Made by a program: the position numbers and the translations under genes. The notes beneath the pieces are model-generated. The model saw only the letters and a list, made by a program, of their open reading frames with translations, was not told the DNA's origin and searched no databases. A stretch of 32,000 nucleotides of DNA from an uncultured Nitrososphaerota archaeon (lineage in GTDB: Archaea > Korarchaeota > Korarchaeia > Korarchaeales > Korarchaeaceae), in assembly GCA_964480775.1 (NCBI GenBank), contig CAYZRF010000010.1, positions 1 through 32,000 of the forward strand. The letters are read 5' to 3'. Below, in pieces: positions 223 through 12,020 of the stretch (position 1 is the first letter of the stretch; each line of letters begins with the position of its first letter).

Positions 223-271
223 TGATGAGCTTAGAAATTGCCAAATCGAACTTCCTCGCCTTCCAAGTTAA
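2..271 (+). CDS. C-terminal fragment of a repeat protein (37-aa tandem repeats, helical-repeat-like). The 5' end lies outside the window.
   Basis: The frame is open from the window edge to TAA at 269-271. The repeat unit DGLDLGELAKKADARGAA-LI--LR---FREEVKEFV occurs twice. Confidence 0.45.
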   Translation, partial: DGLDLGELAKKADARGAAYLIWELRFAGFREEVKEFVDGLDLGELAKKADARGAADLIRALRLNEFREEVKEFVDELRNCQIELPRLPS

Positions 272-410
272 CTAGATTCATCAGATACGTACCTGAACTA
301 AATCTTCGTGAAACTGTGATTTTACGACAAGATAGACTTACAAATTTATATACTTTCGCAAACTTTTCTAATATGGCTCCCCTCACCATTGGTCTTCACC
401 AATTGACTTT

Positions 411-462
411 GGGGGGCTCAGGGGCAGGGGGGGTTGGGCTTAGTTTTCCCTGGCCCCTGCCC
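411..462 (+). other. G-rich element: four G-runs (G6, G4, G7, G3) with G-quadruplex potential, overlapping a 9-bp GC hairpin.
   Basis: The sequence ggggggctcaggggcagggggggttggg spans 411-438. GGGCAGGGG at 422-430 pairs with CCCCTGCCC at 454-462, leaving a 23-nt loop. It sits in an otherwise AT-rich non-coding stretch. Confidence 0.5.
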
Positions 463-535
463 TATCATAACCCCCATCATGATTGCTGCCTATACTTTTT
501 AAGAATTTCTGCCATACAGAAAATAGGGGTTTGGC

Positions 536-679
536 ATGTCTGAATGGGTAAGCATGAAGATCAAGAGAGATGTTTATCAGAGATTGCTTAACCTAAAGGC
601 TGATTTGAGCAAGAAAAAAGGCAGGGTTGTCGATTTCTCTGAGGCAATGGCTTATGCTCTTGAAAAAGTTGGCTATTGA
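536..679 (+). CDS. Small ribbon-helix-helix-like DNA-binding protein (47 aa; below the ORF-track cutoff).
   Basis: Hand translation: MSEWVSMKIKRDVYQRLLNLKADLSKKKGRVVDFSEAMAYALEKVGY*. It shows a beta-alpha-alpha pattern typical of CopG/Arc-like proteins. An alternative start is the ATG at 554. Confidence 0.45.
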   Translation: MSEWVSMKIKRDVYQRLLNLKADLSKKKGRVVDFSEAMAYALEKVGY

Positions 680-709
680 CAAATTGACAATAATATATTA
701 GAATATGGC

Positions 710-1705
710 TCATGACAATTTGGCAGATTTGAGCCTGTAAACCCCTGGCTTAACCCTCTCAATAAGCCCTGCTTCAATCAGCTTGTTTATTTTTCGATAA
801 ACAGATCTCTGGCTCAATTTAACAGATTTACAGATCTGTTTAATCGTTAGTTTGCCCCCATCGTTTTGGGCAATCTGGCAGAGATGTTCATAGAATGGAT
901 CCTTTTTGTAATGCTCTTCATGCCCCCAGGATGCAAAGCTTTTGCTGATTCGATCTGTCCAAAAGCTTGGCAAGGAGTTCTTGCATTTTATAATCGCAAA
1001 TCTCCTAAGGAGCCATGTAAAATAAGATTGGGTATAATATTGCAGGTATTTGCTATATTTGGCCAGCAAATACTTGAAGTAATCATCCTTCCAGGTTACG
1101 AAATACTTTGGACGTTCTGATTTTGGCAAGTTCGCAAAGAATAGCAAGGCATAATTAACAAAATCGCTAAAGGCATCATGTTCAAGGTGCATTTGCAGGG
1201 CTGCTGGCTCCTTTAGGAAGATGTAATCAGCTTGGGATCTGATCAATTTATCTATAAGGGCACCTGCCTGGGTTATGAAGATCAAGGACAGGCCTTTATG
1301 CCTGCTTATGGCAATGATGTTTGCAGCCTGAACGTTGATGTTACGCATTGCCCTGCGTGCATGAAACGTTAATTCAGCCTCATCTATTACTGCAAAGGAT
1401 CCATTTGGGATTTTAGTTATGTCTCTGGCAGTTTTGAATGGGGTATTTTCCAGGTTTGTCCATACATCCCTGGCAAAGAATCCCTTAGCAAGTTCTCCAA
1501 GCCTTAAACCTAAAGCAGTCTTTCCAGCCCCCCTTTTTCCAACGATTACAACAGTTTTAGAGCCTTCAAAGATGTCCCTAAAGAAATACATCCAATCAAA
1601 TTCATCCAGGATAAGGCCATATCTCCTTATGGCAGCTTCATCCTCAACAAGCTTAGGAGAAAAAAGCTTAGGAGAAAAAACAGGGGCAGGGATAGCCATT
1701 TTCAT
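710..1705 (-). CDS. P-loop NTPase (Zot/pI-like morphogenesis ATPase motifs) fused to a C-terminal winged helix-turn-helix.
   Basis: Walker A GKRGAGKT (nt 1517-1540). Walker B FAVIDEAE (nt 1373-1396). SRHKGLSLIFITQ resembles the Zot-family HRH-G-D--ITQ motif. The C-terminus LTIKQICKSVKLSQRSVYRKINKLIEAGLIERVKPGVYRL is wHTH-like. ATGA overlap with the upstream gene. Confidence 0.8.
   Translation of the reverse strand: MKMAIPAPVFSPKLFSPKLVEDEAAIRRYGLILDEFDWMYFFRDIFEGSKTVVIVGKRGAGKTALGLRLGELAKGFFARDVWTNLENTPFKTARDITKIPNGSFAVIDEAELTFHARRAMRNINVQAANIIAISRHKGLSLIFITQAGALIDKLIRSQADYIFLKEPAALQMHLEHDAFSDFVNYALLFFANLPKSERPKYFVTWKDDYFKYLLAKYSKYLQYYTQSYFTWLLRRFAIIKCKNSLPSFWTDRISKSFASWGHEEHYKKDPFYEHLCQIAQNDGGKLTIKQICKSVKLSQRSVYRKINKLIEAGLIERVKPGVYRLKSAKLS
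1651..1680. repeat. Perfect 15-nt tandem duplication (gcttaggagaaaaaa x2) inside the NTPase N-terminus.
   Basis: Read directly from the sequence. It encodes FSPKL-FSPKL on the minus strand. Confidence 0.9.
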
Positions 1706-1896
1706 CTACGCTTTTTCCTTGCCTGGCTTATTATCCTTGCTCCTTGCTGTCCTGGGAATTTCTGCCAGAATATCTTGCCTGCTGTCCTGCGTGCAATTTC
1801 TCTTGCTTGATCTGGGGGATAACCCTTTTTCAGGTAGAAACGATAGATCTTGTTTTCAATGTCCTTGAATCTAACGCCCTTTTTCCCAACGTCCAT
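1702..1896 (-). CDS. Small basic protein (64 aa), paralog of the adjacent 65-aa protein.
   Basis: Shared pattern I-----FY--KG--P-QA--IA---A-K-F--KF plus an Arg/Lys tail (ARKKRR). Stop/start overlaps occur on both sides. Confidence 0.6.
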   Translation of the reverse strand: MDVGKKGVRFKDIENKIYRFYLKKGYPPDQAREIARRTAGKIFWQKFPGQQGARIISQARKKRR

Positions 1897-2093
1897 TAAG
1901 ATCGCCTCTTACGCCATTTGAAAAAACGCCTTGCATTATCTGGCCCAAACTTCCTGAAAATGACCTTTGCTGCTGCCCCCTCTGCAATTTTCTCTGCCTG
2001 CTGAGGATCCATGCCCTTAGATATGTAAAACTGCTTGATGTTCTCTTTTATGGTGTTATAATAGCCCTCTGCTTTTTCAGGATCAAAGCTCAT
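1896..2093 (-). CDS. Small basic protein (65 aa), paralog of 1702..1896.
   Basis: Same motif pattern, with tail KWRKRRS. TAATG overlap with the downstream paralog and ATGA overlap with the upstream micro-ORF. Confidence 0.6.
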   Translation of the reverse strand: MSFDPEKAEGYYNTIKENIKQFYISKGMDPQQAEKIAEGAAAKVIFRKFGPDNARRFFKWRKRRS

Positions 2094-2200
2094 TTTCTTT
2101 GCCTCTTGCTCGCTTTTAGCATCTCTCTAAGCTCTTCAATTTCTCTTTTGTTTGATGCCCATGCCAGGATGATTATGATGATGACCAGGATATGCCCCAT
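2090..2200 (-). CDS. Micro-ORF, 36 aa: a single-pass TM segment plus a basic tail.
   Basis: Hand translation: MGHILVIIIIILAWASNKREIEELREMLKASKRQRK*. Its ATG overlaps the stop of the upstream gene by 1 nt, and its TGA overlaps the ATG of the downstream gene. Confidence 0.4.
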   Translation of the reverse strand: MGHILVIIIIILAWASNKREIEELREMLKASKRQRK

Positions 2201-2799
2201 CATCTTAATCTGCCCTCTTGTTCCATTTTTCTAAGGAATTCCTGGATATCAGCTTCTCCAATCCTTATTGGGCTTGGAACAGCCTTCATCTCCTCAGTTA
2301 TCTGATAGGGCACAGTAAGCCTTGTTAATCGTCTCATTAGCTCTGGCGTTTCATCAAGGACAAGAGCAAGCTTCTCTGCAAGCTGCTTATTCTCAAGCAA
2401 TCCAAGCATGTCCTGGATGTCATAAAGCAGGAAGATCCAGCCCAGAAATGAGGGTTTTGTAAGGTAAAGGACATAATTGGGGTTTGCATCAACTATCTTA
2501 AGGCCTGCTGATTCTAAGACCGTTACGGTTCCAAATGCCCTGATCAAAGGCATTGGGATCTGAATATGCACAGAATAGCTTTGCAGGAATTCACGCTTTG
2601 GAGTTAAGTTTATGCCCTCAACTTCAAGCCCTTTAAGCCCAAGCCATGCAAGATCAACGGTAATGGGCATTACTGAATCAAGCTGGAAGTTATACCATAT
2701 TCCATTGGTAAAGACTAACGAAATAGTTTGCCCTGGCCTGAAGATTGAGCGTTTTGCATCTCTTAGGGCAGCCCTGATTAACTCTTGAAGCTGCCCCAT
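2200..2799 (-). CDS. Hypothetical soluble protein. 199 aa from the ATG at 2799; the ORF track extends it to 2853.
   Basis: Long ORF. The ATG at 2799-2797 overlaps the TAA of the upstream gene by 1 nt (TAATG), the same coupling pattern used elsewhere in this operon. Confidence 0.65.
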   Translation of the reverse strand: MGQLQELIRAALRDAKRSIFRPGQTISLVFTNGIWYNFQLDSVMPITVDLAWLGLKGLEVEGINLTPKREFLQSYSVHIQIPMPLIRAFGTVTVLESAGLKIVDANPNYVLYLTKPSFLGWIFLLYDIQDMLGLLENKQLAEKLALVLDETPELMRRLTRLTVPYQITEEMKAVPSPIRIGEADIQEFLRKMEQEGRLR

Positions 2800-3743
2800 T
2801 ACCTTAGCCCTGGCATGCTCATAGGTGTCGCTTGCTTCTGTTTCCATTTCCATAGGATTATCACCAATCCCAGGATGCAGGGCACAGCAATGCCAGCAGA
2901 AATAAGCAGGATCCTCTTGCGTTTGGCAGCCTGCTGCATTGCTATAAGCTGCAACAAGGCCTGCTGTTTCTCTTGTTCGCTTGTGGAAGGATCCAATATT
3001 ACCATTAGGATGCCCATCTGTGGATTTTCTTGCATTAGCTGCATCATGACAGGGTTCTGCATCATGCTGCTGCTTGATTTCTCAAGCTTGTTGATCTTCT
3101 GCATTATTTCGTTTAGGTAATTTTCAACAATCGCATCCTCTGTCTCCCTCTTTATCAGTTCTTTGTTTGCATCAACGATTTTCTGAGCTATCTGCTGGGC
3201 TTGTTCCTTTGAAATGCCCCCAGAAGTGTCTATTTTGCTTATTTCCTGCTGGATTATCTGCGTTATCTCCTGCCTGATTTCATCTTCAATTTCCTGTTTT
3301 ATCTGATCCTTTAAGGCTGCAATATCCTGGCTGTTATCTGAAACCTGGCCTTGTTGGTTCTGATCCTGTTGTGCATTAACTGTTGATGGATCTGCAATTT
3401 TTACATCATCCGTTGTTTCCAGCCTTATGATGCAATAAGATGCCTTAATTTCCGTGAAATAGAGGGTAAAGCTTACATCTTCAATTGAGTATTGCAGAAA
3501 TGAGCCCTCATTAACTTCATAGGCATTTGCTGTTGGATAGATTTGGTTAAAGACCGCTGTCTTATTTTCTCCAGGATAAACAATAAAATCAAGGCTGCGT
3601 TTGCCATTTACTAATATAGTGTATGTCTTTTCGTATGAAATTGCATAGATCTGTTGATTTGCAACTTCTCGCAAGTTACTCGCGAGTACTTGCGAACTAA
3701 TCGCGAGAATCAAAAAAATAAAGGAGAGGGTTGTTTTTTGCAT
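2799..3743 (-). CDS. Secreted, C-terminally membrane-anchored coiled-coil protein.
   Basis: N-terminal signal peptide MQKTTLSFIFLILAISSQVLA. Beta-rich N-terminal domain. Q/E/I-rich helical region, including 3 x 24-nt periodic QEI----- units at 3241-3312. C-terminal TM segment ILLISAGIAVPCILGLVIILW. Confidence 0.75.
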   Translation of the reverse strand: MQKTTLSFIFLILAISSQVLASNLREVANQQIYAISYEKTYTILVNGKRSLDFIVYPGENKTAVFNQIYPTANAYEVNEGSFLQYSIEDVSFTLYFTEIKASYCIIRLETTDDVKIADPSTVNAQQDQNQQGQVSDNSQDIAALKDQIKQEIEDEIRQEITQIIQQEISKIDTSGGISKEQAQQIAQKIVDANKELIKRETEDAIVENYLNEIMQKINKLEKSSSSMMQNPVMMQLMQENPQMGILMVILDPSTSEQEKQQALLQLIAMQQAAKRKRILLISAGIAVPCILGLVIILWKWKQKQATPMSMPGLR

Positions 3744-3750
3744 GTTTGCA

Positions 3751-4059
3751 TCACCAAGGTATTAATTCAGCTAATGGATTTCCTAAGTTGAAGATTCCAT
3801 AGATTATTCCTAGGAGCGCGAAGAAAGTTATGAAGTAAATGATGAAGAAGTCCGTTTGATCGCGAAAGATCTTGAAATCTCCTATTATCCAGTCTAAGAA
3901 CAATGAAATAGGTATTGCTGCGACCGCTGCGATTATAAAGCTTTCAGTTAGGCCAAATTGCGATAGAACGGTCGTGCTAAATTGTATAGCGATTCCTACG
4001 ATGCTGCCAAATAAAATGACTGCGATTGTTGCTATTACCGTCTTAATTCTAGGTTTCAA
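3751..4059 (-). CDS. Small hydrophobic protein with 3 predicted TM segments (102 aa from the TTG at 4059).
   Basis: Hydrophobic segments TVIATIAVILFGSIVGIAIQF, FIIAAVAAIPISLFLDWII and FFIIYFITFFALLGIIYGIF. The TTG at 4059 overlaps the upstream stop as TTGA, and GGTGA lies 7 nt upstream. The ORF track starts at another TTG at 4092. Confidence 0.65.
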   Translation of the reverse strand: MKPRIKTVIATIAVILFGSIVGIAIQFSTTVLSQFGLTESFIIAAVAAIPISLFLDWIIGDFKIFRDQTDFFIIYFITFFALLGIIYGIFNLGNPLAELIPW

Positions 4060-6107
4060 ATCAAGCTCACCCCCCCTAATATGTACGTACAAACGATTAT
4101 TATCAAGCCAAGAGCTAGTAGGCCGCTACCTAGCTTTCTAAGTTCTTTCGTTTTTGTTAGAGATCCAAGAACCAACATAACGAATCCTAAGACTGCTAAG
4201 GCAATTCCTAGCCAATAGAAGGAGCCAGAACCCATGCCAGATTCTAGCCATGCAAGCAGCGCAGCGAAAGATGCGCCAGATTCTCCTTGAAATAGTTCTG
4301 CTTGTGTTTCATATTGTGTCGCTTTTTGTTCGTAATCTTCCGCTTTCTCTATATGACTTTCTGGTTTTCCTTGTAAGAACCAATCGAAATAACCAGAAAC
4401 ATCGGGATCGTATGCGCTCGCTGCTTTAATTCTTTCTTCAGCGCTCGCTAACCATTGATTTGCTGCCATTTCATACATCATGCGCTCGCTAGTACTGTTT
4501 GCTGCTTCGGCCTTTTCCATCGCTTCCTTTGCTTTTTGTAGATCGTACTGCGCTAATTTCAATTGGGCCATTGCTTTGGGATCATCTACGTCTGCCATCG
4601 TCTTATTTAGCAGTTCTTCCCATTTCTGCCAAAATGCGCTATTTGCTGAAGGAGTTCCTAATGTACCGTTTCCAGATGTTGTTTCTACGTTCCATTCGCT
4701 AGGATAGATGAGAATAGGATATGTCAAATAGGCATCTATGGGATCGCCAAAATGCAGCGTTATATCGCTTGCTGTTATGCTAGAAACGTCTTCAGGTATA
4801 AAGTCGCTAGAAACGTCTTTATATGATGTCGTTAACGTCACAGATTTTGATGCTGGATCAAACGATCCATCTCTGCTAGAAAATTCTATTTTCAAGCTAA
4901 CGTCCTTATTTGCTTTAATTGAAAACGTTACTGTCTTCTTTTTGCCGCCTTCAAAAGCGTTAGTCGTCTTTTGTATTATCCAAAGTTTGTAGTCACCAGA
5001 TTGAATAAACCAAGTCGCATTAGTCATTTTAGCTGTTTGTGTTTCGACGTAGATGCCGCGCCAATACGTTTTCAAATCTCCCCAAGGATCTGGATCGCAG
5101 AATCCACAGGCATGTCCAAATTCATGTAATAGCTCATCTAACATCCCAGCGTTTATTATAAAGCCATGCATGCAATATAGAGCGCCTGCGCCTGCAGGAA
5201 ATGGCGGAGTTGGTACTCCGTTCCATACTGTTAGCTCTTCCCTTTGCGGCAGCTTGTTATATAGCTGATTTGGAGTTGCGTTTTCTAGTTCTGTCCAGTT
5301 TAAGTCTGGTTCTGAGTGAACGGAATACTGAGAAATGTAACAGATGCCGCCAGATGCTTCCGCTATCGTTTTGTTAAATTCTTCGACTACGCTGCTTGGA
5401 ACTCCATAGAATACTGCAGTAAATGGTTTCTTTGGATCAATATATCCATCTCCGCATCCTTCTGCAATGTCCCATGAGCCTGCAATGTCCCCGTGCTCAA
5501 AGTATGACATTGCAATGTTATCAAGGTCCAAGTGCAACGTGAACGTAACGCTTGTAGGCTGAACCTGGACAGTTCCATAGATTGATGATGATATGTTGAT
5601 TGGTTCCTTTGGAAACGTTACGTTGAACGTTAGATGCACCTCATGGACATCCGTTAGGTTTTCCCAAAGCCAATTGATTAAGCTGAGATCAGTTTTGAAC
5701 CTAAATGTGCTTTCCTCGCCCAAGTACCAAAAACCCAAGCCGCTGAAATAATAACCTTCGATTATTGGATCCCAGGGGGCTGAATAGCTGCCTGAAGTTC
5801 CATCAGACCTTGTGTAGTCAAAAACAGGATTATCCTTGTAATAGCAATGCGGTTTTATCTCTATCCATCTGCTGTTCCCCTTAGCTGTTATTTTAGTTAC
5901 GCATCTGGCGTTAATAGTGATTTTATTACGCACATCCCATGCTGCGGCATTGCTGGGCTCTGCTGTTATGTTCCAATAAACCGTTTGCCCATCAAGTTCT
6001 GTTTCTTTTACTGTTAGTTTGACATGGCCATAGGTAAGCCCCAGAACATTAAAGGCCGCGATTCCAAGCATTAGAATTAAAAAAACGGTTATGACTGCCT
6101 TTTTCAT
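4056..6107 (-). CDS. Large secreted, membrane-anchored protein with a metzincin-type zinc-binding motif and a helical stalk.
   Basis: Signal peptide MKKAVITVFLILMLGIAAF. HEFGHACGFCD (nt 5094-5126) matches HExxHxxGxxD. About 11 N-x-S/T sequons by my count. A/E/K/Q-rich helical region of about 150 aa, then two C-terminal TM segments. AGGTGA lies 7 nt upstream of the ATG. Confidence 0.8.
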   Translation of the reverse strand: MKKAVITVFLILMLGIAAFNVLGLTYGHVKLTVKETELDGQTVYWNITAEPSNAAAWDVRNKITINARCVTKITAKGNSRWIEIKPHCYYKDNPVFDYTRSDGTSGSYSAPWDPIIEGYYFSGLGFWYLGEESTFRFKTDLSLINWLWENLTDVHEVHLTFNVTFPKEPINISSSIYGTVQVQPTSVTFTLHLDLDNIAMSYFEHGDIAGSWDIAEGCGDGYIDPKKPFTAVFYGVPSSVVEEFNKTIAEASGGICYISQYSVHSEPDLNWTELENATPNQLYNKLPQREELTVWNGVPTPPFPAGAGALYCMHGFIINAGMLDELLHEFGHACGFCDPDPWGDLKTYWRGIYVETQTAKMTNATWFIQSGDYKLWIIQKTTNAFEGGKKKTVTFSIKANKDVSLKIEFSSRDGSFDPASKSVTLTTSYKDVSSDFIPEDVSSITASDITLHFGDPIDAYLTYPILIYPSEWNVETTSGNGTLGTPSANSAFWQKWEELLNKTMADVDDPKAMAQLKLAQYDLQKAKEAMEKAEAANSTSERMMYEMAANQWLASAEERIKAASAYDPDVSGYFDWFLQGKPESHIEKAEDYEQKATQYETQAELFQGESGASFAALLAWLESGMGSGSFYWLGIALAVLGFVMLVLGSLTKTKELRKLGSGLLALGLIIIVCTYILGGVSLI

Positions 6108-6120
6108 CTTGCGATCACCT

Positions 6121-7617
6121 TTAGATATATCCTAAGAGCGCGAAGAACATGTAAAGAATCCATAGAATCACTAGAAACTTCCAAATCTGCTTAATTGCTC
6201 CTATAATGAATCCCGCGGCTGTTATCACTAGAAGTATTATGCCAATACCTATCAGCCAGCTTGGAAGGCCGCTTAGATCAGCGAGATAATCAGGAATAAG
6301 CCATAAGTACGATGTATATTTTGATATTGTGCTAGAACTGATTACAAAGACGTATCTGCTTGTTGAAGATTCTAAGTGCGTTCCATCGCCTAAGAACTTT
6401 GCAACTAATTTCTTTGCACCTGTTGTCGTATCTTCTGGAACCTCAAGGGTTTTAGTGTATTTTCCTGTGCTATCGGTCTTTACAGCATAATCAACTCCAA
6501 GCCAGGATATGACAACAGTCCTGTTTGCAAGTGCAGATCCATCGACAAGCTTCAAATAGCCCGTTATTGTAAATGATTTGCCTGGGTTCACTTCTAAGGG
6601 GGATGATGTTATTGTTATCTTTGTTTCGATTATTAAGCCTACCGTGAATGCCCTCTCCTCCAAAAGACTGCTCGATAAACCGTCTTCCTTTGCCAGCACC
6701 GTGATGTTGTAATAACCTTCATTTGCATCTGGCTGGGGTGTAAAATAGTATTCGAAAAGCCCTGTTCCGCTGTTATATACCATAGTTGCGTTTTCTACAA
6801 CGTTTGCACCCTTAGGATCCGTTATGTTAATTTTAACGCTTGTTGAGCTTGGAGATCCGCATGTTATGTTAGCTTCTATTTTAACAGTTTCCCCTATCTC
6901 TATGCTCGTAGGAGAAACGCTTATTTCGTTGATAACAGGAGCATCTGAATAAGTTATGTAGAAATAATCTACCCAGTGATAATAATTTTGATCTGAGCCG
7001 CTGCCGCTTGTATATATCTCAATTTTGTCGAAATTATGCGTTTCCGTGACAGATTTTGTTGCATCGGCATCTCCAGATATCTGAACCGTTAGGCTGTCAC
7101 CCTTCCTGGTAATGTTGCAAACAAAAAGGCCGTCTGAAGGGGCTGCTATGTTTGTTTTTGTTCCGTTCTGATCGATGGTATATTGCCCGAACCCAGATGT
7201 GGATTCATCGATATAGCCTATTCTTAGTTCATAGTTATTTTCCGTATCCTTCAGCTTAACGACCAGCATTGACCAGTAACTACTTGTTAGCTTTACTTTT
7301 CCCTTGAACTCTATTGAGAAGTCTCCTGTCAGATTTTTAACGCCTGTTTCTGTTTTGTTTAGTTCGCATTCAACGTACCCGCTGTTTGTTTGCGTAATGT
7401 TCATGCTCAAATGTGTTCCGTTCACTCCAGCAACAGAACTTGCTCCCAATGAAACAATCCAAGATGGGCCAATCTCTGTTCTGTCGAAATCATCCTTCCA
7501 TGTTCGCTTGAGAGCTAAAGTAGGCATTAGGGGGCTTACTAATACCAGGGCGATAATGCCTAAACTGACGATATACTTTTTACTCAGGGCTCTCACCCTA
7601 TGCTTATTTCTAATCAA
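6121..7617 (-). CDS. Secreted, membrane-anchored adhesin-like protein: lectin/LamG-like beta-sandwich, Ig-like domain, and CarboxypepD_reg-like domain.
   Basis: N-terminal TM/signal segment. RTWKDDFDRTEIGPSW followed by a beta-rich domain. INEISVSPTSIEIGETVKIEANITC is Ig/CARDB-like. GYLKLVDGSALANRTVVISW...VKTDSTGKYTKTLEV fits the carboxypeptidase-regulatory-like pattern. Two C-terminal TM segments and about 11 N-x-S/T sequons. The start is uncertain (TTG 7617 or GTG 7596). Confidence 0.8.
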   Translation of the reverse strand: MIRNKHRVRALSKKYIVSLGIIALVLVSPLMPTLALKRTWKDDFDRTEIGPSWIVSLGASSVAGVNGTHLSMNITQTNSGYVECELNKTETGVKNLTGDFSIEFKGKVKLTSSYWSMLVVKLKDTENNYELRIGYIDESTSGFGQYTIDQNGTKTNIAAPSDGLFVCNITRKGDSLTVQISGDADATKSVTETHNFDKIEIYTSGSGSDQNYYHWVDYFYITYSDAPVINEISVSPTSIEIGETVKIEANITCGSPSSTSVKINITDPKGANVVENATMVYNSGTGLFEYYFTPQPDANEGYYNITVLAKEDGLSSSLLEERAFTVGLIIETKITITSSPLEVNPGKSFTITGYLKLVDGSALANRTVVISWLGVDYAVKTDSTGKYTKTLEVPEDTTTGAKKLVAKFLGDGTHLESSTSRYVFVISSSTISKYTSYLWLIPDYLADLSGLPSWLIGIGIILLVITAAGFIIGAIKQIWKFLVILWILYMFFALLGYI

Positions 7618-7848
7618 TTATCTATTTAAGAACATAATTCTCCTTCATTTTTTGCATATTTAGGTGTATTATAACAACACAACAGGCAAAAGCTCTTACC
7701 TGCCTAAGTTTTGGTAAAACAAGCTTGCCCTTTTTGCTCAAGGTTTGGGTTTTGCATGTTAAAGTGTCCTGAATAAGGGGTTTGACTCTATGAAGCTTGC
7801 TCTTTTGCATGTTGTAGTTTAAAAAATCATTTTACCATGCAATAACGT
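7618..7848. promoter_or_regulatory. Control region between the surface-protein operon and the divergent wHTH gene.
   Basis: AT-rich. TATA-like tttaaaaaa at 7818-7826, 23-31 nt upstream of the ATG at 7849. TATA-like ttataata on the minus strand at 7667-7674. The 11-mer TTTTGCATGTT occurs at 7750-7760 and 7803-7813, with a 1-mismatch copy at 7650-7660. Confidence 0.45.
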
Positions 7849-8196
7849 ATGCCAAAGACATTTGGCTTAATTAAGATCCATCGTGATACCAGGATAATCG
7901 AACCTCAGGACTTTCTGGATCTCATTTTCCCAAGAAAAGCCCATTATGCCCACTACGCTGCCCAATTGTTGCCTTTAATTGCAAAGGGGCAGGTAAACAG
8001 AGATAGCTATAAATGGCTGCCAGAACAACTTGGGATCTCAAAAAGGACATACTATTATGTTCTGCAAAGGTTAATGGCTTTAGGGCTTGTTATCAAGGAA
8101 AATAACGTTTACAAATTGAGCAAGAGATTTGCTAAAAACATGCAAAGGCTTGCAGAGTTCTGGGAAGCTTGGGCAGAGAGATTGGGGGCAGAATAA
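7849..8196 (+). CDS. Winged-helix transcription regulator (115 aa).
   Basis: LGISKRTYYYVLQRLMALGLVIKENNVYKL is a typical HTH plus wing. It is the only plus-strand gene in the core of the element. A T6 tract follows at 8209-8214. Confidence 0.7.
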   Translation: MPKTFGLIKIHRDTRIIEPQDFLDLIFPRKAHYAHYAAQLLPLIAKGQVNRDSYKWLPEQLGISKRTYYYVLQRLMALGLVIKENNVYKLSKRFAKNMQRLAEFWEAWAERLGAE

Positions 8197-8208
8197 ACCC
8201 TTTCCCTC

Positions 8209-8214
8209 TTTTTT
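8209..8214 (+). terminator. Oligo-T tract downstream of the wHTH gene.
   Basis: TTTTTT lies 13 nt after the stop. Archaeal termination typically uses oligo-T. Confidence 0.3.
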
Positions 8215-8321
8215 GCAAGTTATTAAAATTCCACTTACTCGAGAGGAGTTCCTTAATAACTTCCTGGTAATGGCCAGGATATAGGCCAGGTTATGAGGAT
8301 CCAAATAAGGCAGGTAATAAT

Positions 8322-8327
8322 AAAAAA
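8322..8327 (-). terminator. Oligo-T tract (minus strand) downstream of the 11335->8333 operon.
   Basis: AAAAAA on the plus strand, just after the stop at 8333. Confidence 0.3.
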
Positions 8328-8332
8328 GAGGG

Positions 8333-8614
8333 TTAAAGCAGGCTTGTTTTAAGCTCTGCAATTGCCTTTTTTCTCAGATCCTCTTTTAATTTCCTTTTAG
8401 CCCTTGTTATGCTCTCAAAAGCTGGCATTATCTTCAAGCTGCTGATTGGGATTTTTAGGATCCATGTGAACCCATCGAATTCAACAGTAACGCAGAATTG
8501 GTTCTGGAATCTTCTTAGCACCTTAAACATTAGTTCCCAATCGTTTGCAACGTGCTCTGTTTCATAGATCTCCTTAATCATTTCTTCAAGGGTTTTGGGC
8601 ATAAACAACCCCAA
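8333..8614 (-). CDS. Hypothetical protein (93 aa; possibly starts at the ATG at 8602).
   Basis: ORF at the end of the co-directional operon. No recognisable motif. Confidence 0.5.
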   Translation of the reverse strand: MGLFMPKTLEEMIKEIYETEHVANDWELMFKVLRRFQNQFCVTVEFDGFTWILKIPISSLKIMPAFESITRAKRKLKEDLRKKAIAELKTSLL

Positions 8615-9023
8615 CCCTGCTTAAATACCTGCAAAATGCGATTACCTTAGAGCTAAGCCTTGATCTGCTTTGTCTTCCTGTTCTGCTTATGTTTAGGATG
8701 TGGTTGAGCATTTCGCAAGCTCTTGGATCTATTATTTTGTAGCTTCCAGGTTTGAAGTTGTTGAATTGCAGCAGCTTGTAGGCAAGGAAATAGGCAGGGG
8801 CACCAGGCTTGGGTATTGGATCACGCAATCGTTTGCCATTTAGGAATACATGATAAGTGAATCCGTCCTTTTTTATTTCAACTTCAAAGATTTCAGCCCT
8901 ATCAGGATCAAATGGTGCATAAAAAGGGCATAGGTAGCTGCTGCATTTATTGCCTCTGATTAGGCAGCTTCTGGATCTCCAAAGGCATGTTACGCATCCT
9001 CTAAGTTCAAGCTTCAATGTCAT
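8586..9023 (-). CDS. Cys-rich hypothetical protein (145 aa).
   Basis: N-terminal cluster C-x2-C-x6-C-x7-C-x4-C (GCVTCLWRSRSCLIRGNKCSSYLC). ATGA overlap with the upstream gene. Confidence 0.55.
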   Translation of the reverse strand: MTLKLELRGCVTCLWRSRSCLIRGNKCSSYLCPFYAPFDPDRAEIFEVEIKKDGFTYHVFLNGKRLRDPIPKPGAPAYFLAYKLLQFNNFKPGSYKIIDPRACEMLNHILNISRTGRQSRSRLSSKVIAFCRYLSRVGVVYAQNP

Positions 9024-9244
9024 ATAGAATCCCTCAATTTCCTTGCAATAACAAGAAACGGAGTTCCTCCTATCTCAAAGCATCCAAGCTCTAAGGTTTG
9101 GTTCTCAAATGGGCAATCTTCCTGGCTGCAAGTGAAGTAATAGCCCCCTTCAAGCTCTACAATGCCAGAAACGTTGATCTTTCCGCATTTATCAAAGCAA
9201 AAGTCAATGTCCTTTTTCCTTCCTATTATAAACAGTTTCTTCAA
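9020..9244 (-). CDS. Small Cys-containing, zinc-ribbon-like protein. 74 aa from the TTG at 9244; the ORF track extends it to 9370.
   Basis: CFDKCGK...CSQEDCPF. The TTG at 9244 overlaps the stop of the upstream 292-aa gene as TTGA. The longer version would overlap that gene by 130 nt. Confidence 0.45.
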   Translation of the reverse strand: MKKLFIIGRKKDIDFCFDKCGKINVSGIVELEGGYYFTCSQEDCPFENQTLELGCFEIGGTPFLVIARKLRDSI

Positions 9245-10119
9245 GATCCTGCCCCCCTCAAAGCAGAGATTATCAGCTTGTTTTGCTCCAAGATCCAACG
9301 TTGCTGCTGCAAGAATTCCCTTTGCTGATCCAAGAGCATCTGAAACTGTTTCATGAACAAGGCAAGCCATTGGGCTGTGTTGTAAACGCCAACGCCCCCA
9401 ATTAGCATGGTCATAACGCTGCCAGCATCCAAAACTGTGTTTGGCTGTATTTCTTCCCTTAGAACATTATCAGATTTCTGATAAACCCTTTTTAGTGCGT
9501 TATCAAAGGATTCAACAGTTATTGATTTAACCCCATCAAGCTGCAAGCCAAAATGATCGTTGTTCAAGTGAATCCTGCTTATCTTGATCTCGTCATCCTG
9601 GGGCTCAATTCCTAATGTATGGTAGATTTCACGCTTGAAGAGCCCAATGATAAGACTAAAACCATCATAATCAAGCCCCTGATCTGCATTGACAAAGGCA
9701 GAAACCTTGCCATGTTTTCTGCCAAACCTTATCTGCATTGTAATGTTCCCAAAAGCAAGATTTATGGTTCTGCTTAGATAGGGCTTGGTTCTGCCCTTTA
9801 TCTCGTAGATTAATATGAGATCATGAACCTTAGGCTTGATGGGCTCTGGATGCCATTGCTGCTGAGGATCCAACCCCACTCCCTGGGTTTGGATATTTGC
9901 AGCATATAGCCCCCTGGAAATTCGCTTAATGAATCCTGCCTTAGATAGTTTTTGGGCATATTTTCTTGCTGTATGATATGACAGCCTTGCTTTTTCAGAG
10001 ATCTCCTTAATGCTTAAGGGCTCTTTTGATGCTCTTAGTATTGATATGATCTTCTGCTGTCCTGGTGTAAGTGTTGATACTGGAGATGTTTGGATATATC
10101 CAATTGGAGATTTGGGCAT
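9241..10119 (-). CDS. wHTH-containing protein with an unknown C-terminal domain of about 200 aa (candidate replication or regulatory protein).
   Basis: N-terminus QQKIISILRASKEPLSIKEISEKARLSYHTARKYAQKLSKAGFIKRISRGLY is wHTH-like. The rest is unrecognised, and the C-terminus is Q-rich and helical. Confidence 0.75.
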   Translation of the reverse strand: MPKSPIGYIQTSPVSTLTPGQQKIISILRASKEPLSIKEISEKARLSYHTARKYAQKLSKAGFIKRISRGLYAANIQTQGVGLDPQQQWHPEPIKPKVHDLILIYEIKGRTKPYLSRTINLAFGNITMQIRFGRKHGKVSAFVNADQGLDYDGFSLIIGLFKREIYHTLGIEPQDDEIKISRIHLNNDHFGLQLDGVKSITVESFDNALKRVYQKSDNVLREEIQPNTVLDAGSVMTMLIGGVGVYNTAQWLALFMKQFQMLLDQQREFLQQQRWILEQNKLIISALRGAGS

Positions 10120-10434
10120 TTAGGGCTCCCTTGCCCCTGATTCAGCTTGAGCTTGGTGTATTTTCAGAACCTTAAGCCCTGCTGGGGTTATGATGTAGTA
10201 AGCCTTTTGTCCCTCTTTGAATTTCGATAAAAGCCCAAGTTTGACAAGTTTCTCTGCAATATACCTTATCCGCTCATAGTAAAGCCTGTTGTCTTTTTCA
10301 AATAGTTCTTGCTTTATCTCTGAGATCCTGGCGTTGTCTCTGGCTGCAATGCTCTCAAGAACCATGAAATAGAGTTCTCTGCCCATGAAGTTGTTGATTG
10401 TGTAAAAAAGGGTTAGGGGGTTGGGCTCTGGCAT
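10120..10434 (-). CDS. Small winged-helix regulator (PadR/MarR-like fold, 104 aa).
   Basis: ISEIKQELFEKDNRLYYERIRYIAEKLVKLGLLSKFKEGQKAYYIITPAGLKVL. Confidence 0.7.
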   Translation of the reverse strand: MPEPNPLTLFYTINNFMGRELYFMVLESIAARDNARISEIKQELFEKDNRLYYERIRYIAEKLVKLGLLSKFKEGQKAYYIITPAGLKVLKIHQAQAESGAREP

Positions 10435-10652
10435 TAGATCACCTTTTTTGGCTCTAACTCAATGTTTAGAGCATATGCAAGCTTCCTCAGAAGTTCTCTC
10501 GCTTGGTTCTTATCGAGTCTTATTGTAGCATAGTTAGAACCCACATCAAAGCATAATTCTAGTTCTCCGCTCATCTGATGATGAATTTGAATGTCGATAG
10601 ATAGCCATTGAAGCTCTAAATATACTGTATATCTTGGTAAAACGGTCATCAT
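10434..10652 (-). CDS. Hypothetical protein (72 aa).
   Basis: ORF coupled to the downstream gene by a 1-nt TAATG overlap. Confidence 0.5.
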   Translation of the reverse strand: MMTVLPRYTVYLELQWLSIDIQIHHQMSGELELCFDVGSNYATIRLDKNQARELLRKLAYALNIELEPKKVI

Positions 10653-10660
10653 TTGCCCCC

Positions 10661-11335
10661 CTACATGTAAACAGTAAGCTGTGGTGCTCTCTTTGCTCTC
10701 TTTGGCATGTAATGGTTCTTTTTGTAATCTTTTATCTGCTGAGCCGCTTTTTCTGGCTCCTTTGATTCTCCAACGCCATTGATGGGCAATTCCAGCCTTG
10801 CAACCGATCTTGTGAATGGTGCAAAAACCCTGATGGGTTCAATTGGGCAGTAATCCCCTTGCAGGAAGATCTTGGGATTTATGCCGTGCTTAAGGCAGAT
10901 CTGTTCATATTTCTCAAGACATTCCTGCAATGAGTTGGTTACAGTTGTTGATGAAGCTATTGAGTAGGAGCCGCATTTCCTGCTTACTCCTAAGCCCTCA
11001 GAACCCCCTTTTGTGTAATCCTCATGGTGAACAACATCAAGCTGGCTTAGGAATTTGTCCCTGAGCTCATCAGGCAATTGGTAGTTTACCTTATCAATCG
11101 TGAAATAGCCAAAAACAAGAGCCTCTTGCTCTGTGCAATCCTCTTTTAAGCCCTCAAAGAACGCCAAAAAGATTTTTTCGCCCCATTTCATACTTTTGGC
11201 AATCTTGATGGGGATTGCCCTGCTTACGCCATATTTCCTTGCTTCTGTCTCAAAGGTCTTCCTTGTGTAAAGCCCTTTGCCGATATAATGCAGCCATTGG
11301 CCATTTTCCTGAATAGATTCTTGCCCCTGAGCCAT
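10661..11335 (-). CDS. Hypothetical protein (224 aa), first clear gene of the 11335->8333 operon.
   Basis: Long ORF with no motif I recognise. An AT-rich putative promoter region lies upstream (11390-11500). Confidence 0.7.
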   Translation of the reverse strand: MAQGQESIQENGQWLHYIGKGLYTRKTFETEARKYGVSRAIPIKIAKSMKWGEKIFLAFFEGLKEDCTEQEALVFGYFTIDKVNYQLPDELRDKFLSQLDVVHHEDYTKGGSEGLGVSRKCGSYSIASSTTVTNSLQECLEKYEQICLKHGINPKIFLQGDYCPIEPIRVFAPFTRSVARLELPINGVGESKEPEKAAQQIKDYKKNHYMPKRAKRAPQLTVYM

Positions 11336-11664
11336 GTTTTATGCCCCCCTGAAAAAGTTTCCAAAGGCAGGGCTTGGGTTGCTGATTTTAGTTTTGCAAA
11401 GTATTCTGGCTAAAATAGTTATTTTACTGTGTTTTTTCGCCAAATCTGTGATTTCACGCCTCCTTTCATTAGTTATAATATTAGTGATTACGGCTTTTTC
11501 AGCTTGAATGGAACTTCTACGATACACGTACAATCGTAGAGCTTGCACATCTTGCCCCTGTGAGTCTTAGTTAGTGGAACGAGGAATTCTCTCCCTCTTT
11601 TCCTGTAAACCGCTGCTATAACTCTTCCTTCTACTCTATCTCCTGGGTTCCTTCCAATCAATCT

Positions 11665-11991: not shown

Positions 11992-12004
11992 CTGGAATCA
12001 TATC

Positions 12005-12020
12005 TTATAACATGTTATAA
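12005..12020. promoter_or_regulatory. Perfect 16-bp palindrome TTATAACATGTTATAA overlapping the TATA region of the RHH-wHTH gene.
   Basis: Read directly from the sequence. It lies 14-29 nt upstream of the ATG at 11991, and each half-site is itself TATA-like (TTATAA). Confidence 0.5.

What the first reader, a model, noticed from the sequence alone, without database searches (positions are those of the whole stretch)
710..7617. Virion-morphogenesis-like operon: three type-I anchored surface proteins, small TM proteins, duplicated basic proteins and a Zot-like NTPase-wHTH fusion
Nine co-directional minus-strand genes are separated by 13 nt or less, or overlap by 1-4 nt. In order they are: (1) a 498-aa protein with signal peptide, lectin/LamG-like beta-sandwich, Ig-like domain, CarboxypepD_reg-like domain and 2 C-terminal TM segments; (2) a 683-aa protein with signal peptide, HEFGHACGFCD motif, a helical stalk of about 150 aa and 2 C-terminal TM segments; (3) a 102-aa 3-TM protein; (4) a 314-aa protein with signal peptide, Q/E/I coiled coil and C-terminal TM; (5) a 199-aa soluble protein; (6) a 36-aa single-TM peptide; (7, 8) two paralogous 64/65-aa basic proteins; (9) a P-loop NTPase with Zot-like motifs. 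The layout of heavily sequon-decorated spike candidates, then small membrane proteins, then a terminal NTPase recalls the conserved block of membrane-containing archaeal viruses (the pleolipovirus spike / membrane protein / NTPase block). The lectin-like plus CarboxypepD_reg-like combination recalls adhesins of Thermococcales spindle viruses of the PAV1/TPV1 type. I recognise no known capsid protein, portal, terminase or pilus/archaellum component. If viral, this would probably be an undescribed lineage. The helical stalks next to the TM anchors would also fit fusion proteins.
Basis: partly seen in the sequence, partly recalled or inferred. Interest (0 to 1): 0.85.

Follow-up and report, generated by a model that had tools for sequence, protein, structure and literature searches.

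The report
Virus-like mobile element in an archaeon
The nine-gene block is real and belongs to a mobile DNA element of about 12 kb in an archaeal (probably Asgard) chromosome; its relatives also exist as free 10-13 kb circles, it most likely builds a membrane-coated particle that carries its DNA between cells, and it links two groups so far treated as separate: the pT26-2 plasmids of hyperthermophiles and the spindle-shaped archaeal viruses.

Summary
Nine tightly packed minus-strand genes (710-7617) encode two sequon-rich, signal-peptide, C-terminally anchored surface proteins, a 3-TM protein, a coiled-coil anchored protein, a soluble protein, a 37-aa TM peptide, two paralogous basic 64/65-aa proteins, and a Zot-like NTPase fused to a wHTH.

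The block is the conserved module of a mobile element (about 320-12100) flanked on the right by cellular genes. The same gene order occurs in at least six divergent elements. Two are closed circles (10.2 and 13.0 kb). One is an integrated 14.0-kb copy with a tyrosine integrase and 18-bp att repeats.

The family is rare: 10 representatives among 1.84 billion proteins, none in IMG/VR, PLSDB or INPHARED.

The NTPase is homologous to the ATPases of the spindle-shaped viruses His1 (same ATPase-HTH architecture) and WyrdV1. The 683-aa and 314-aa proteins are remote homologues of pT26-2 core proteins t26-6p (PDB 2WB7, top hit by sequence profile and by fold) and t26-13p.

No His1-like capsid protein and no pleolipovirus or PAV1 homologue was found.

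Best reading: an undescribed integrative virus-like element that makes an enveloped or vesicle-like transfer particle. It is a new variant of a known kind. Virion formation is inferred, not shown.

The parts
320..12100 (-). Approximate extent of the integrated mobile element (about 11.8 kb). The left limit is where similarity to circular relative L002 stops. The right limit lies somewhere in 11992-12178.
   Evidence: The blastn and local alignment to L002 end at window 320. Cellular genes start at 12179. GC is 41.6% inside vs 44.9% outside. No significant att repeat was found.
231..389 (-). Small ORF that spans the left junction. Its first 23 codons or so are homologous to the L002 61-aa ORF; the rest reads into flanking DNA.
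   Evidence: Translation comparison; alignment.
536..679 (+). 47-aa small basic protein convergent with the NTPase gene; probable regulator. It is conserved next to the NTPase or integrase in relatives.
   Evidence: phmmer hits in L001 (1.9e-11) and L002 (9.6e-9). No Pfam hit.
710..1705 (-). P-loop NTPase (Zot/pI-like core, no TM segment) fused to a C-terminal winged helix-turn-helix. Probable DNA-loading or morphogenesis motor.
   Evidence: Pfam Zot 25.6 bits plus wHTH families. PDB profile hits 2r2a (3.3e-6) and STIV B204 (1.9e-4). His1 ORF16 at 4.5e-9 (96.5% hhalign) and WyrdV1 ATPase at 3.1e-8 (95.7%).
1702..1896 (-). 64-aa basic helical protein (pI 11.1), paralogue of the next gene. Candidate DNA-condensing or nucleoprotein.
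   Evidence: The family is present in 1-2 copies in L001, L002, L055 and L062.
1896..2093 (-). 65-aa basic helical protein (pI 10.0), paralogue of the 64-aa protein.
2090..2203 (-). 37-aa peptide with an N-terminal TM segment and a basic amphipathic tail.
   Evidence: Positional equivalents of 45-52 aa in L001, L002 and L055.
2200..2853 (-). 217-aa soluble acidic protein, conserved in all complete modules; function unknown.
   Evidence: Alignment A7. No Pfam, PHROG, NCBIfam or PDB match.
2799..3743 (-). 314-aa protein: signal-like N-terminus, small N-terminal domain, Q/E-rich coiled coil, C-terminal TM. Remote homologue of pT26-2 core protein t26-13p.
   Evidence: hhalign 91.5%. The t13 HMM picks this family out of 7060 ORFs at 7.7e-6. 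Shuffle control.
3751..4059 (-). 102-aa protein with three TM segments (113 aa from an upstream TTG), conserved. In L060 it is fused to the coiled-coil protein.
   Evidence: Not related to His1-like capsid proteins.
4056..6107 (-). 683-aa sequon-rich surface protein: signal peptide, beta-rich ectodomain with invariant HExxHxxGxCDP and EGCGDGY motifs, beta-sandwich, helical stalk, 2 C-terminal TM segments. Remote homologue of pT26-2 t26-6p.
   Evidence: Alignments A1 and A6. PDB profile hit 2wb7 at 3.8e-5. AF2 model with Foldseek top hit 2wb7_A at 2.8e-7. HMM vs t26-6p at 5.2e-10. Shuffle control.
6121..7617 (-). 498-aa (probably 491-aa) sequon-rich surface protein: signal peptide, highly variable N-terminal half, conserved Ig-like/CarboxypepD_reg-like domain, 2 C-terminal TM segments. 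Candidate receptor-binding protein.
7618..7848 (.). Divergent control region between the operon and the wHTH gene, with three copies of ACnnnAA(C/T)ATGCAAAA. Candidate operator or iteron sites.
7849..8196 (+). 115-aa wHTH protein (AF_0843-like), transcribed divergently from the module. Conserved at the same place in L001 and L060. Probable regulator of the module.
   Evidence: PHROG 32591 'transcriptional regulator' at 1.6e-8. Orthologues at 2.1e-62 (L001), 2e-35 (L060) and 6.4e-20 (L055). PF27297 marks.
8333..11991 (-). Variable regulation/replication region: 93, 145, 116, 292 (wHTH plus unknown domain), 104 (wHTH), 72, 224, 69 and 108 (RHH+wHTH) aa. No recognisable replicase or integrase.
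   Evidence: The 292-, 145-, 104-, 93- and 224-aa proteins have orthologues in L002, L055 and L001.

Best explanation
Window 320-12100 is an integrated copy of a small (10-14 kb) archaeal integrative element of an undescribed family. The host is probably an Asgard archaeon. The nine-gene operon is the element's conserved dissemination (morphogenesis) module.

Proposed mechanism (inferred):
- The two glycosylated, C-terminally anchored surface proteins are inserted into the host membrane. The 498-aa protein, with its hypervariable N-terminal half, acts as receptor binder. The 683-aa protein, with an invariant HExxHxxGxxD zinc-site motif and a helical stalk, acts in entry: surface-layer cleavage and/or membrane fusion.
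- The 3-TM protein, the coiled-coil anchored protein and the 37-aa TM peptide organise the membrane patch.
- The two small basic proteins coat or condense the circular DNA.
- The soluble NTPase-wHTH recognises the element's DNA and drives its loading into a bud.
- A membrane-derived particle (pleomorphic virion or infectious vesicle) is released without lysis.

Shown: mobility of the element, conservation of the module, and the homologies listed below. Inferred: particle formation and the role of each protein.
For: 1. The element is mobile.
- The same gene order is found in L002, which has a 91-bp terminal overlap and so is a 10.16-kb circle.
- It is also found in L055, which has a 55-bp overlap and so is a 13.0-kb circle.
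- L001 is integrated in a 144-kb contig. It carries a tyrosine integrase (Phage_integrase, 135.8 bits) and 18-bp direct repeats 14,007 bp apart.
- The order also holds in L060, L062 and partial contigs.

2. The right flank of the window copy is cellular.

3. The NTPase is homologous to the ATPases of bona fide or predicted spindle-shaped viruses.
- His1 ORF16 scores E = 4.5e-9 with hhalign 96.5%, and has a C-terminal HTH at the equivalent position.
- WyrdV1 scores 3.1e-8 and 95.7%; tblastn gives 26% identity.
- The NTPase also matches Zot/pI and STIV B204.
- As in wyrdviruses, it closes a block that begins with adhesin-like genes and it lacks a TM domain (bioRxiv 10.1101/2021.07.29.453957).

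4. The surface proteins behave like virion or vesicle envelope proteins. They have a signal peptide, C-terminal anchors, 2.5-fold sequon enrichment, and a hypervariable N-terminal half on a conserved anchor domain.

5. The 683-aa and 314-aa families are remote homologues of pT26-2 core proteins t26-6p and t26-13p, in the same relative order. Badel et al. 2019 proposed that this core mediates DNA or protein transfer, possibly by vesicles (PMC6972569).

6. There are no conjugation genes (VirB4, relaxase, coupling protein) and no tailed or icosahedral hallmark genes.
Against: - No capsid protein of any known kind was found. No His1-like MCP exists in any member, and PHROGs gives nothing for eight of the nine proteins.
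- The closest relatives of the surface proteins belong to a family classed as plasmids, for which no particle has been seen.
- IMG/VR holds no member of the family.
- The window copy and the circular L002 lack an integrase, and no significant att repeat flanks the window copy. How it integrated is unexplained, and it could be immobile.
- Structure models are of medium confidence (pLDDT 62-65). TM-scores to 2WB7 are low (0.16-0.20).
- The NTPase model matches only generic P-loop ATPases in BFVD.
- Host assignment rests on one protein whose nearest named homologues are only 40-43% identical.
Confidence: 0.55

Rival explanations
1. It is an integrative plasmid of the pT26-2 type. On this reading the module is a membrane-embedded, contact-dependent DNA/protein transfer or cell-fusion apparatus, not a particle. 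The surface proteins bring two cells together. The NTPase-wHTH pumps or pilots plasmid DNA across the junction.
For: - The only detectable homologues of the surface proteins are the pT26-2 core proteins t26-6p and t26-13p.
- Badel et al. [quoted passage not shown]
- No capsid protein was found.
- Weak Foldseek resemblance of the 683-aa model to class II fusion glycoproteins would fit a fusogen equally well.
Against: - The NTPase is of the His1/wyrdvirus/pI type. It is not the larger HerA/VirB4-like t26-14p; only the P-loop aligns (39-51% hhalign).
- Only 2 of the 7 pT26-2 core genes are detectably shared.
- Small basic DNA-binding candidates next to the NTPase fit packaged DNA better than a conduit.
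- The elements are half the size of pT26-2 plasmids.
Confidence: 0.27
2. It is a decayed or domesticated remnant. The window copy has lost its integrase and mobility, and the host keeps the module for its own benefit, for example surface adhesion or exclusion of related elements.
For: - There is no integrase and no clear att repeats in the window copy.
- Badel et al. 2019 report conserved pT26-2 core genes in integrated copies that have lost replication genes.
Against: - All nine genes are intact and tightly coupled.
- The closest relative, L002 (86% identity for the 683-aa protein), is a closed circle that also lacks an integrase, so absence of an integrase is not a sign of decay.
- The regulatory and replication region is also retained.
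Confidence: 0.12
3. It is an ordinary cellular cell-surface, S-layer, pilus or adhesion operon of the host, vertically inherited.
For: The Ig-like and CarboxypepD_reg-like domains, signal peptides and glycosylation sequons are also typical of archaeal surface proteins.
Against: - The same block sits on two closed circles of 10-13 kb, and on an integrase-bearing island bounded by att repeats.
- The 683-aa family has only 10 representatives among 1.84 billion proteins.
- It is flanked by small wHTH/RHH genes typical of mobile elements.
- No pilin, archaellin, secretion ATPase or S-layer family was detected.
Confidence: 0.02

Closest known systems
[quoted passage not shown] 2010; Badel et al. 2019), including the TKV1-type integrated elements; t26-6p structure PDB 2WB7
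   Same: - Integrative and episomal circular archaeal elements.
- A conserved, co-directional block of mostly membrane proteins plus one ATPase.
- First gene (t26-5p): signal peptide, CarboxypepD_reg-like domain, C-terminal anchor.
- Second gene (t26-6p): about 700 aa with a helical stalk and 2 C-terminal TM segments. It is homologous to the 683-aa family.
- t26-13p (signal peptide, coiled coil, C-terminal TM) is homologous to the 314-aa family.
- Same relative gene order.
- Function of the block is unknown in both.
   Different: - Only 2 of the 7 core genes are detectable here.
- t26-6p lacks the HExxH motif and has 2 extra N-terminal TM segments.
- The ATPase is a different kind: 433-aa t26-14p against a 331-aa Zot-like NTPase-wHTH.
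- Elements here are 10-14 kb against 17-38 kb.
- The hosts are mesophilic-sediment archaea (probably Asgard), whereas the family was reported as restricted to two hyperthermophilic and methanogenic orders.
- The small basic paralogues and the 217-aa protein have no pT26-2 counterpart.
Spindle-shaped archaeal viruses with a pI-like ATPase: His1 (Halspiviridae) and the wyrdviruses of Lokiarchaeia
   Same: - Homologous ATPase, without a TM domain, placed at the end of a block that starts with adhesin genes.
- His1 ORF16 has the same ATPase plus C-terminal HTH architecture.
- Genome size is 14-16 kb.
- The hosts include Asgard archaea.
   Different: - The defining His1-like capsid protein of about 80 aa with two hydrophobic helices is absent.
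- No other gene is shared.
- His1 is linear with a protein-primed polymerase.
Pleolipoviridae (HRPV-1 block of VP3, VP4 and VP8)
   Same: - The layout is shared: an anchored spike glycoprotein, small multi-TM proteins and a terminal P-loop NTPase.
- Both have a 7-17 kb circular genome that can integrate.
- Both would use non-lytic budding of a vesicle-like virion.
   Different: There is no detectable homology. VP8 reaches 21.8% hhalign probability, and VP3 and VP4 give nothing. No PHROG hit was found.
Tubulavirales (inoviruses) and the 'archaeal inoviruses' of Roux et al. 2019; also the IME1 elements of Dehalococcoides (bioRxiv 10.64898/2026.09.15.751708)
   Same: - Zot/pI-type ATPase domain.
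- A short single-TM peptide and a 3-TM small protein next to anchored adsorption-like proteins.
- A small integrative genome with chronic-release logic.
   Different: - The NTPase has no TM segment or periplasmic domain and carries a wHTH.
- There is no rolling-circle Rep, no ssDNA-binding protein and no secretin.
- The short peptide is not shown to be a coat protein.

Membership tests
pT26-2 plasmid family | t26-6p-like core protein | tested here: met
   The profile of 12 family members hits 2wb7 at E = 3.8e-5. Foldseek's top PDB hit is 2wb7_A at 2.8e-7. The HMM scores 5.2e-10 against t26-6p. The real score of 34.3 bits compares with a maximum of 14.4 in 1000 local shuffles. The homology is remote: it is mainly in the stalk, and TM-scores are 0.16-0.20.
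pT26-2 plasmid family | t26-13p-like core protein | tested here: met
   The t13 HMM selects the 314-aa family from 7060 ORFs at 7.7e-6. hhalign gives 91.5%. Shuffle controls give 24.3 against a maximum of 11.8 bits, and 13.0 against 9.9. The match is weak and partly in coiled coil.
pT26-2 plasmid family | t26-14p ATPase (433 aa, HerA/VirB4/B204-like) | tested here: not met
   Only the P-loop aligns: hhalign 39-51% over 35 columns, HMM E = 0.58. The NTPase here belongs to the Zot/His1 ORF16 group.
pT26-2 plasmid family | Remaining core genes t26-5p, 7p, 11p and 15p | tested here: not met
   No HMM or hhalign signal was found in either direction. The only shared feature with t26-5p is architecture: signal peptide, CarboxypepD_reg-like domain and anchor.
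pT26-2 plasmid family | Host restricted to Thermococcales or Methanococcales; size 17-38 kb | tested here: not met
   Elements are 10.2-14.0 kb. The nearest named homologues of a host protein are Jordarchaeaceae and Lokiarchaeia.
Spindle-shaped viruses (Halspiviridae, wyrdviruses) | His1/SSV1-like major capsid protein (about 80 aa, two hydrophobic helices) | tested here: not met
   hhalign of the 3-TM family against WyrdV1 MCPs gives 0.3%. An MCP HMM built from WyrdV1 and His1 VP21 finds nothing in any element.
Spindle-shaped viruses (Halspiviridae, wyrdviruses) | pI-like AAA+ ATPase without TM domain at the end of the morphogenetic module | tested here: met
   His1 ORF16 scores 4.5e-9 and 96.5%. 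WyrdV1 scores 3.1e-8 and 95.7%. tblastn gives 2e-3. No TM segment is predicted.
Pleolipoviridae | VP4-like spike and VP3-like membrane protein | tested here: not met
   hhalign probabilities are 0.6% or lower. No PHROG hit was found.
Pleolipoviridae | VP8-like NTPase | tested here: inconclusive
   hhalign gives 21.8% over 81 columns around the P-loop.
Tubulavirales (inoviruses) | pI: Zot ATPase domain followed by a TM segment | tested here: not met
   The Zot domain is present, but there is no TM segment and the C-terminus is a wHTH.
Tubulavirales (inoviruses) | Short (30-90 aa) single-TM major coat protein | tested here: inconclusive
   A 37-aa TM peptide with a basic tail is present and positionally conserved. 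Its role cannot be tested here.
Zinc metallopeptidases of the HExxHxxGxxD (snapalysin-like metzincin) type | Extended zinc-binding motif plus a conserved Met-turn and a recognisable peptidase fold | tested here: inconclusive
   The motif is invariant in 12 sequences. No peptidase Pfam family is hit by any member. A downstream Met is not conserved. No peptidase appears among the top Foldseek hits.

The most novel reading that the evidence does not exclude
These elements are a new family of non-lytic enveloped viruses of Asgard (or neighbouring) archaea, with a virion built without any known capsid protein. The DNA would be condensed by the two 65-aa basic proteins inside a membrane studded with two glycoprotein spikes. 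One spike would be a zinc-dependent entry protein or fusogen. Because two of the spike and membrane proteins are homologous to pT26-2 core proteins, the long-unexplained pT26-2/TKV1 'plasmid' core of Thermococcales and Methanococcales would then also be a virion or infectious-vesicle module. That would join those plasmids and the spindle-shaped viruses in one ancient assemblage spanning Euryarchaeota and Asgard archaea.
Probability: 0.3. Interest if true: 0.8.

Novelty: new variant of a known kind. Interest (0 to 1): 0.65.

Why it matters
- Few mobile elements of Asgard archaea are known, and none of this type has been described.
- The function of the pT26-2/TKV1 core module has been open since 2010. 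A compact, distant relative in which that module is joined to a virus-type (His1/wyrdvirus) ATPase gives a testable hypothesis: particle-mediated transfer. It also gives a minimal gene set of nine genes to test it with.
- If the 683-aa protein is an entry protease or fusogen, it would be a new class of archaeal envelope protein.
- The family is invisible to current virus-detection resources (no IMG/VR, PHROGs or geNomad-type markers except Zot). It therefore marks a blind spot in archaeal virome surveys.

Tried and rejected
- Pfam, PHROGs and NCBIfam scans of all module proteins gave signal only for the NTPase/wHTH and weak Ig-like domains.
- His1-like capsid homology of the 3-TM protein was rejected.
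- Homology to pleolipovirus VP3, VP4 and VP8 and to PAV1 ORF676, ORF678 and ORF121 was rejected or inconclusive.
- Scans for the 683-aa family found nothing in IMG/VR or JGI metagenomes. tblastn against PLSDB and INPHARED gave no match.
- The GTDB scan with the NTPase profile found 50 loci in DPANN, Hadesarchaea and Methanosarcinales. These are shorter homologues (30-37% identity, no wHTH) in heterogeneous neighbourhoods, not the same module.
- Foldseek of the NTPase model against BFVD returned only generic P-loop ATPases.
- The search for att repeats around the window copy found nothing significant. The best candidate is TACGACAAGATAGAC (323-337) against TACGTTAAGATAGTC (12080-12094), 12 of 15 matches, which is compatible with chance.
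- No tRNA or Rfam family lies in the window.
- Exact-protein look-ups to recover the parent contig, the left flank or an empty site failed.
- The sample accessions were not found in the literature.
- The recently cultivated Lokiarchaeon provirus FylV1 is an unrelated double-jelly-roll virus.

Full report
**The observation**

The nine minus-strand ORFs are present exactly where stated. Successive genes are separated by 13 and 7 nt, or overlap by 1-4 nt.

Two starts need a comment. The fifth gene most likely uses the upstream ATG. That makes it 217 aa with a 55-nt overlap, because all six orthologues keep that N-terminus. The first gene probably starts at the GTG at 7596, by comparison with its closest orthologue.

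Simple hydropathy analysis reproduces the described topologies:
- The 498- and 683-aa proteins have an N-terminal signal-like segment and two C-terminal TM segments.
- The 102/113-aa protein has three TM segments.
- The 314-aa protein has a signal-like segment and one C-terminal TM.
- The 37-aa peptide has one TM and a basic tail.
- The 64/65-aa proteins have pI 10-11 and no hydrophobic segment.

Both large proteins carry 11 N-X-S/T sequons against 4.1-4.5 in composition-preserving shuffles (p about 0.001). Their relatives carry 7-15, while the cytoplasmic proteins carry 0-3.

The two small basic proteins are paralogues (1.7e-7). The NTPase passes Pfam's threshold for Zot and has a C-terminal winged helix. 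The domain calls for the 498-aa protein (Ig-like, CarboxypepD_reg-like) are only weakly supported. The LamG-like call is not verified.

**Genomic context**

Upstream of the operon lies a divergently transcribed wHTH gene (7849-8196). Beyond it is a 3.7-kb run of small genes rich in wHTH and RHH domains.

From 12179 onward the genes are plainly cellular: a Metallophos protein, an MFS transporter, thioredoxin reductase, pantothenate kinase, THEP1 NTPase, TatD, an Opp ABC transporter and a beta-CASP RNase. GC is 41.6% in 320-12100 and 44.9% beyond. There is no tRNA and no Rfam match.

The nearest named homologues of the beta-CASP protein are from Jordarchaeaceae and Lokiarchaeia, at 40-43% identity. 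Unnamed metagenomic proteins reach 77-84%. An Asgard host is therefore likely but not established.

**Relatives and mobility**

The 683-aa protein has only four word-based homologues. It has ten cluster representatives in an exhaustive profile search of 1.84 billion proteins.

Their contigs all carry the same module in the same order: an adhesin-like protein of about 460 aa, the HExxH protein of about 700 aa, a 3-TM protein of about 103 aa, a coiled-coil anchored protein of about 315 aa, a soluble protein of about 220 aa, a TM peptide of about 45 aa, one or two basic proteins of about 70 aa, and the Zot-like NTPase of about 320 aa.

| Locus | Size and form | Evidence |
|---|---|---|
| L002 | 10,250 bp with a 91-bp terminal overlap; closed circle | |
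| L055 | 13,063 bp with a 55-bp overlap; closed circle | |
| L001 | integrated in a 144-kb contig; tyrosine integrase (135.8 bits) after the NTPase; 18-bp direct repeats (AGCGCTCAGCGTGAGCTG) 14,007 bp apart | |

In the window, DNA and protein similarity to L002 stops at position 320, inside a small ORF whose first 23 codons are shared. This marks the left junction.

Neither the window copy nor L002 has an integrase, and I found no significant att repeat. How this copy entered the chromosome is unexplained.

The family is absent from IMG/VR. It has no tblastn match in PLSDB or INPHARED.

**The NTPase**

A profile of the family hits two solved structures: the N-terminal domain of Neisseria Zot (2r2a, 3.3e-6) and the STIV B204 packaging ATPase (1.9e-4). 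Its only tblastn match among 50,697 phage and virus records is the 'AAA+ ATPase related to morphogenesis (pI) proteins' of Lokiarchaeota virus WyrdV1.

I searched a profile of the six close orthologues against the ORFs of reference genomes:

| Reference protein | HMM E-value | hhalign probability |
|---|---|---|
| His1 ORF16 | 4.5e-9 | 96.5% |
| WyrdV1 ATPase | 3.1e-8 | 95.7% |
| HRPV-1 VP8 | not significant | 21.8% |
| pT26-2 t26-14p | 0.58 | 39-51% (P-loop only) |

His1 ORF16 is annotated with a helix-turn-helix at its C-terminus, at the same place as the wHTH here. The ATPase-HTH fusion is therefore shared with a real virus.

As Medvedeva et al. describe for wyrdviruses, this ATPase lacks the TM domain of inovirus pI and closes a morphogenetic block that begins with the adhesin.

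The AF2 model (pLDDT 62) matched only generic P-loop ATPases in BFVD.

Shorter homologues (30-37% identity, no wHTH) are common in DPANN, Hadesarchaea and Methanosarcinales MAGs, but in unrelated neighbourhoods.

**The surface proteins**

Twelve members of the 683-aa family share several invariant features:
- the motifs EGCGDGY and HExxHxxGxCDP;
- a conserved sequon (TNxTW);
- an alanine-rich helical stalk before the two TM segments.

From memory, the HExxHxxGxxD pattern is the extended zinc-binding motif of snapalysin-type metzincins. However, no peptidase family is detected in any member, and a Met-turn is not conserved. Protease activity is therefore a hypothesis.

The family profile hits one PDB entry significantly: 2WB7, protein t26-6p of the Thermococcus plasmid pT26-2 (3.8e-5, stalk region).

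Independently, an AF2 model (pLDDT 64.9; confident for about 220-350, 365-470 and 490-605) has 2wb7_A as its top Foldseek hit among 350,542 chains. That hit scores E = 2.8e-7 at probability 1.0, but global TM-scores are only 0.16-0.20.

The hits that follow are complement-type MG/Ig domains. After those come alphavirus E1 and bunyavirus glycoproteins at lower probability, in both PDB and BFVD. This is a weak hint of an elongated beta-rich envelope-protein shape, nothing more.

With the pT26-2 and pGE2 sequences in hand, I tested the link in both directions:
- The 683-family HMM scores t26-6p at 5.2e-10.
- The t26-6p HMM finds only 683-family members among 7060 ORFs.
- The t26-13p HMM picks out the 314-aa family at 7.7e-6. 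hhalign gives 91.5%.
- In all four tests the real score exceeds every one of 1000 locally shuffled sequences.

The 498-aa family has a hypervariable N-terminal half on a conserved Ig-like/CarboxypepD_reg-like domain plus anchor. This is the pattern expected of a receptor-binding protein. t26-5p has the same architecture, but no detectable sequence similarity.

**What it is not**

- No His1-like capsid protein exists in any element.
- PHROGs gives no hit for eight of the nine proteins.
- Pleolipovirus VP3 and VP4, the PAV1 adhesins and PAV1 ORF121 show no homology.
- There are no conjugation, tailed-virus or icosahedral-virus hallmarks.
- Membership of the pT26-2 family fails: only 2 of 7 core genes are shared, and the ATPase, size range and hosts differ.
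- Membership of the spindle-shaped viruses fails for lack of the capsid protein.

**Interpretation**

The firm conclusion is that this is the dissemination module of a previously undescribed family of small integrative archaeal elements. The module is chimeric in its affinities. Its ATPase comes from the His1/wyrdvirus lineage. Two of its membrane and surface proteins come from the pT26-2 lineage.

The most likely function (0.55) is assembly and non-lytic release of a membrane-derived DNA-containing particle, either a pleomorphic virion or an infectious vesicle. The roles are assigned by inference:
- the hypervariable 498-aa protein as receptor binder;
- the 683-aa HExxH protein as entry protein;
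- the small TM proteins as membrane organisers;
- the basic 64/65-aa pair as DNA condensers;
- the NTPase-wHTH as the DNA-recognising motor.

The main rival (0.27) is the hypothesis of Badel et al. for pT26-2: a contact-dependent transfer or fusion apparatus without a particle. A domesticated remnant (0.12) and a cellular locus (0.02) are less likely.

The suggested pleolipovirus and PAV1/TPV1 links are layout analogies only. The real detectable relatives are His1/wyrdvirus (ATPase) and pT26-2 (surface proteins).

**Novelty and interest**

I rate this a new variant of a known kind: an archaeal integrative element with a membrane-protein/ATPase module. The interest is moderate to high for three reasons:
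- It extends the pT26-2-type core beyond Thermococcales and Methanococcales, where the family was thought to be confined.
- It ties that core to a viral ATPase.
- It reveals an element family, probably of Asgard archaea, that current virus catalogues miss.

Virion formation remains unproven.

Noticed in passing
window 1-222 (ORF to 271, + strand): Two 111-bp tandem copies (93% identical) encode a repeated 37-aa unit (ELAKKADARGAA...FREEVKEFVD). The ORF runs off the left edge of the window and has no Pfam match. Two independent Logan contigs with the identical element end inside this repeat, at 198 and 260, so assemblies break here. It is unclear whether it is host or element DNA.
   Followed up: partly
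window 7650-7818: Three direct copies of a 16-nt motif lie in the divergent control region between the wHTH gene and the operon. On the minus strand it reads ACnnnAA(C/T)ATGCAAAA. Two copies are followed by AAAAG(A/G)GCAAGCTT. These are candidate operator or iteron sites.
   Followed up: partly
window 23877-23968 and 24875-24966: A perfect 92-nt direct repeat forms the 3' ends of the two adjacent oligopeptide ABC ATPase genes (oppD and oppF-like). Both proteins therefore end with an identical segment of about 30 aa ([30 protein letters not shown]). This looks like recent gene conversion between paralogues.
   Followed up: no
L001 3468-3485 and 17475-17492: An 18-bp direct repeat, AGCGCTCAGCGTGAGCTG, bounds the related 14.0-kb integrated element. 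Its tyrosine integrase, preceded by a DnaJ-type zinc-finger protein, lies at the right end. No tRNA gene is at the site.
   Followed up: yes
L060 6335-8065: In one relative the 3-TM protein and the coiled-coil anchored protein are fused into a single 576-aa product. This suggests the two act together. That element shows no small basic genes in the gene calls.
   Followed up: partly
L055 9214-9345: The second copy of the small basic protein is truncated to 43 aa in this circular element. L002 and L062 have a single copy. The duplication is therefore not essential.
   Followed up: partly
P0009 (Aenigmarchaeota homologue of the NTPase; also L049): One distant homologue of the NTPase is interrupted by an intein (PF14890) right after the ...ITQ motif.
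   Followed up: no
L005-L054 (GTDB MAG loci): A shorter NTPase of the same family is widespread in DPANN, Hadesarchaea and Methanosarcinales MAGs, in varied neighbourhoods. It is about 225-280 aa, with the motifs GKRGxGKTA, DEA, SRHKG..ITQ and LPxFWxxxIS, and it has no wHTH. Its role there is unknown.
   Followed up: partly
window 320-12100 and L002: Neither the integrated window copy nor its closest circular relative encodes any recognisable integrase, whereas L001 does. The integration route is unexplained. It could involve an integrase supplied in trans, or recombination.
   Followed up: partly
L060 10885-11445 and pGE2 (L067) 6625-7467: An emp24/GP25L-like protein is encoded both in one member of this family (weak Pfam mark) and in the pT26-2-family plasmid pGE2. 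This is a further possible link between the two groups.
   Followed up: no
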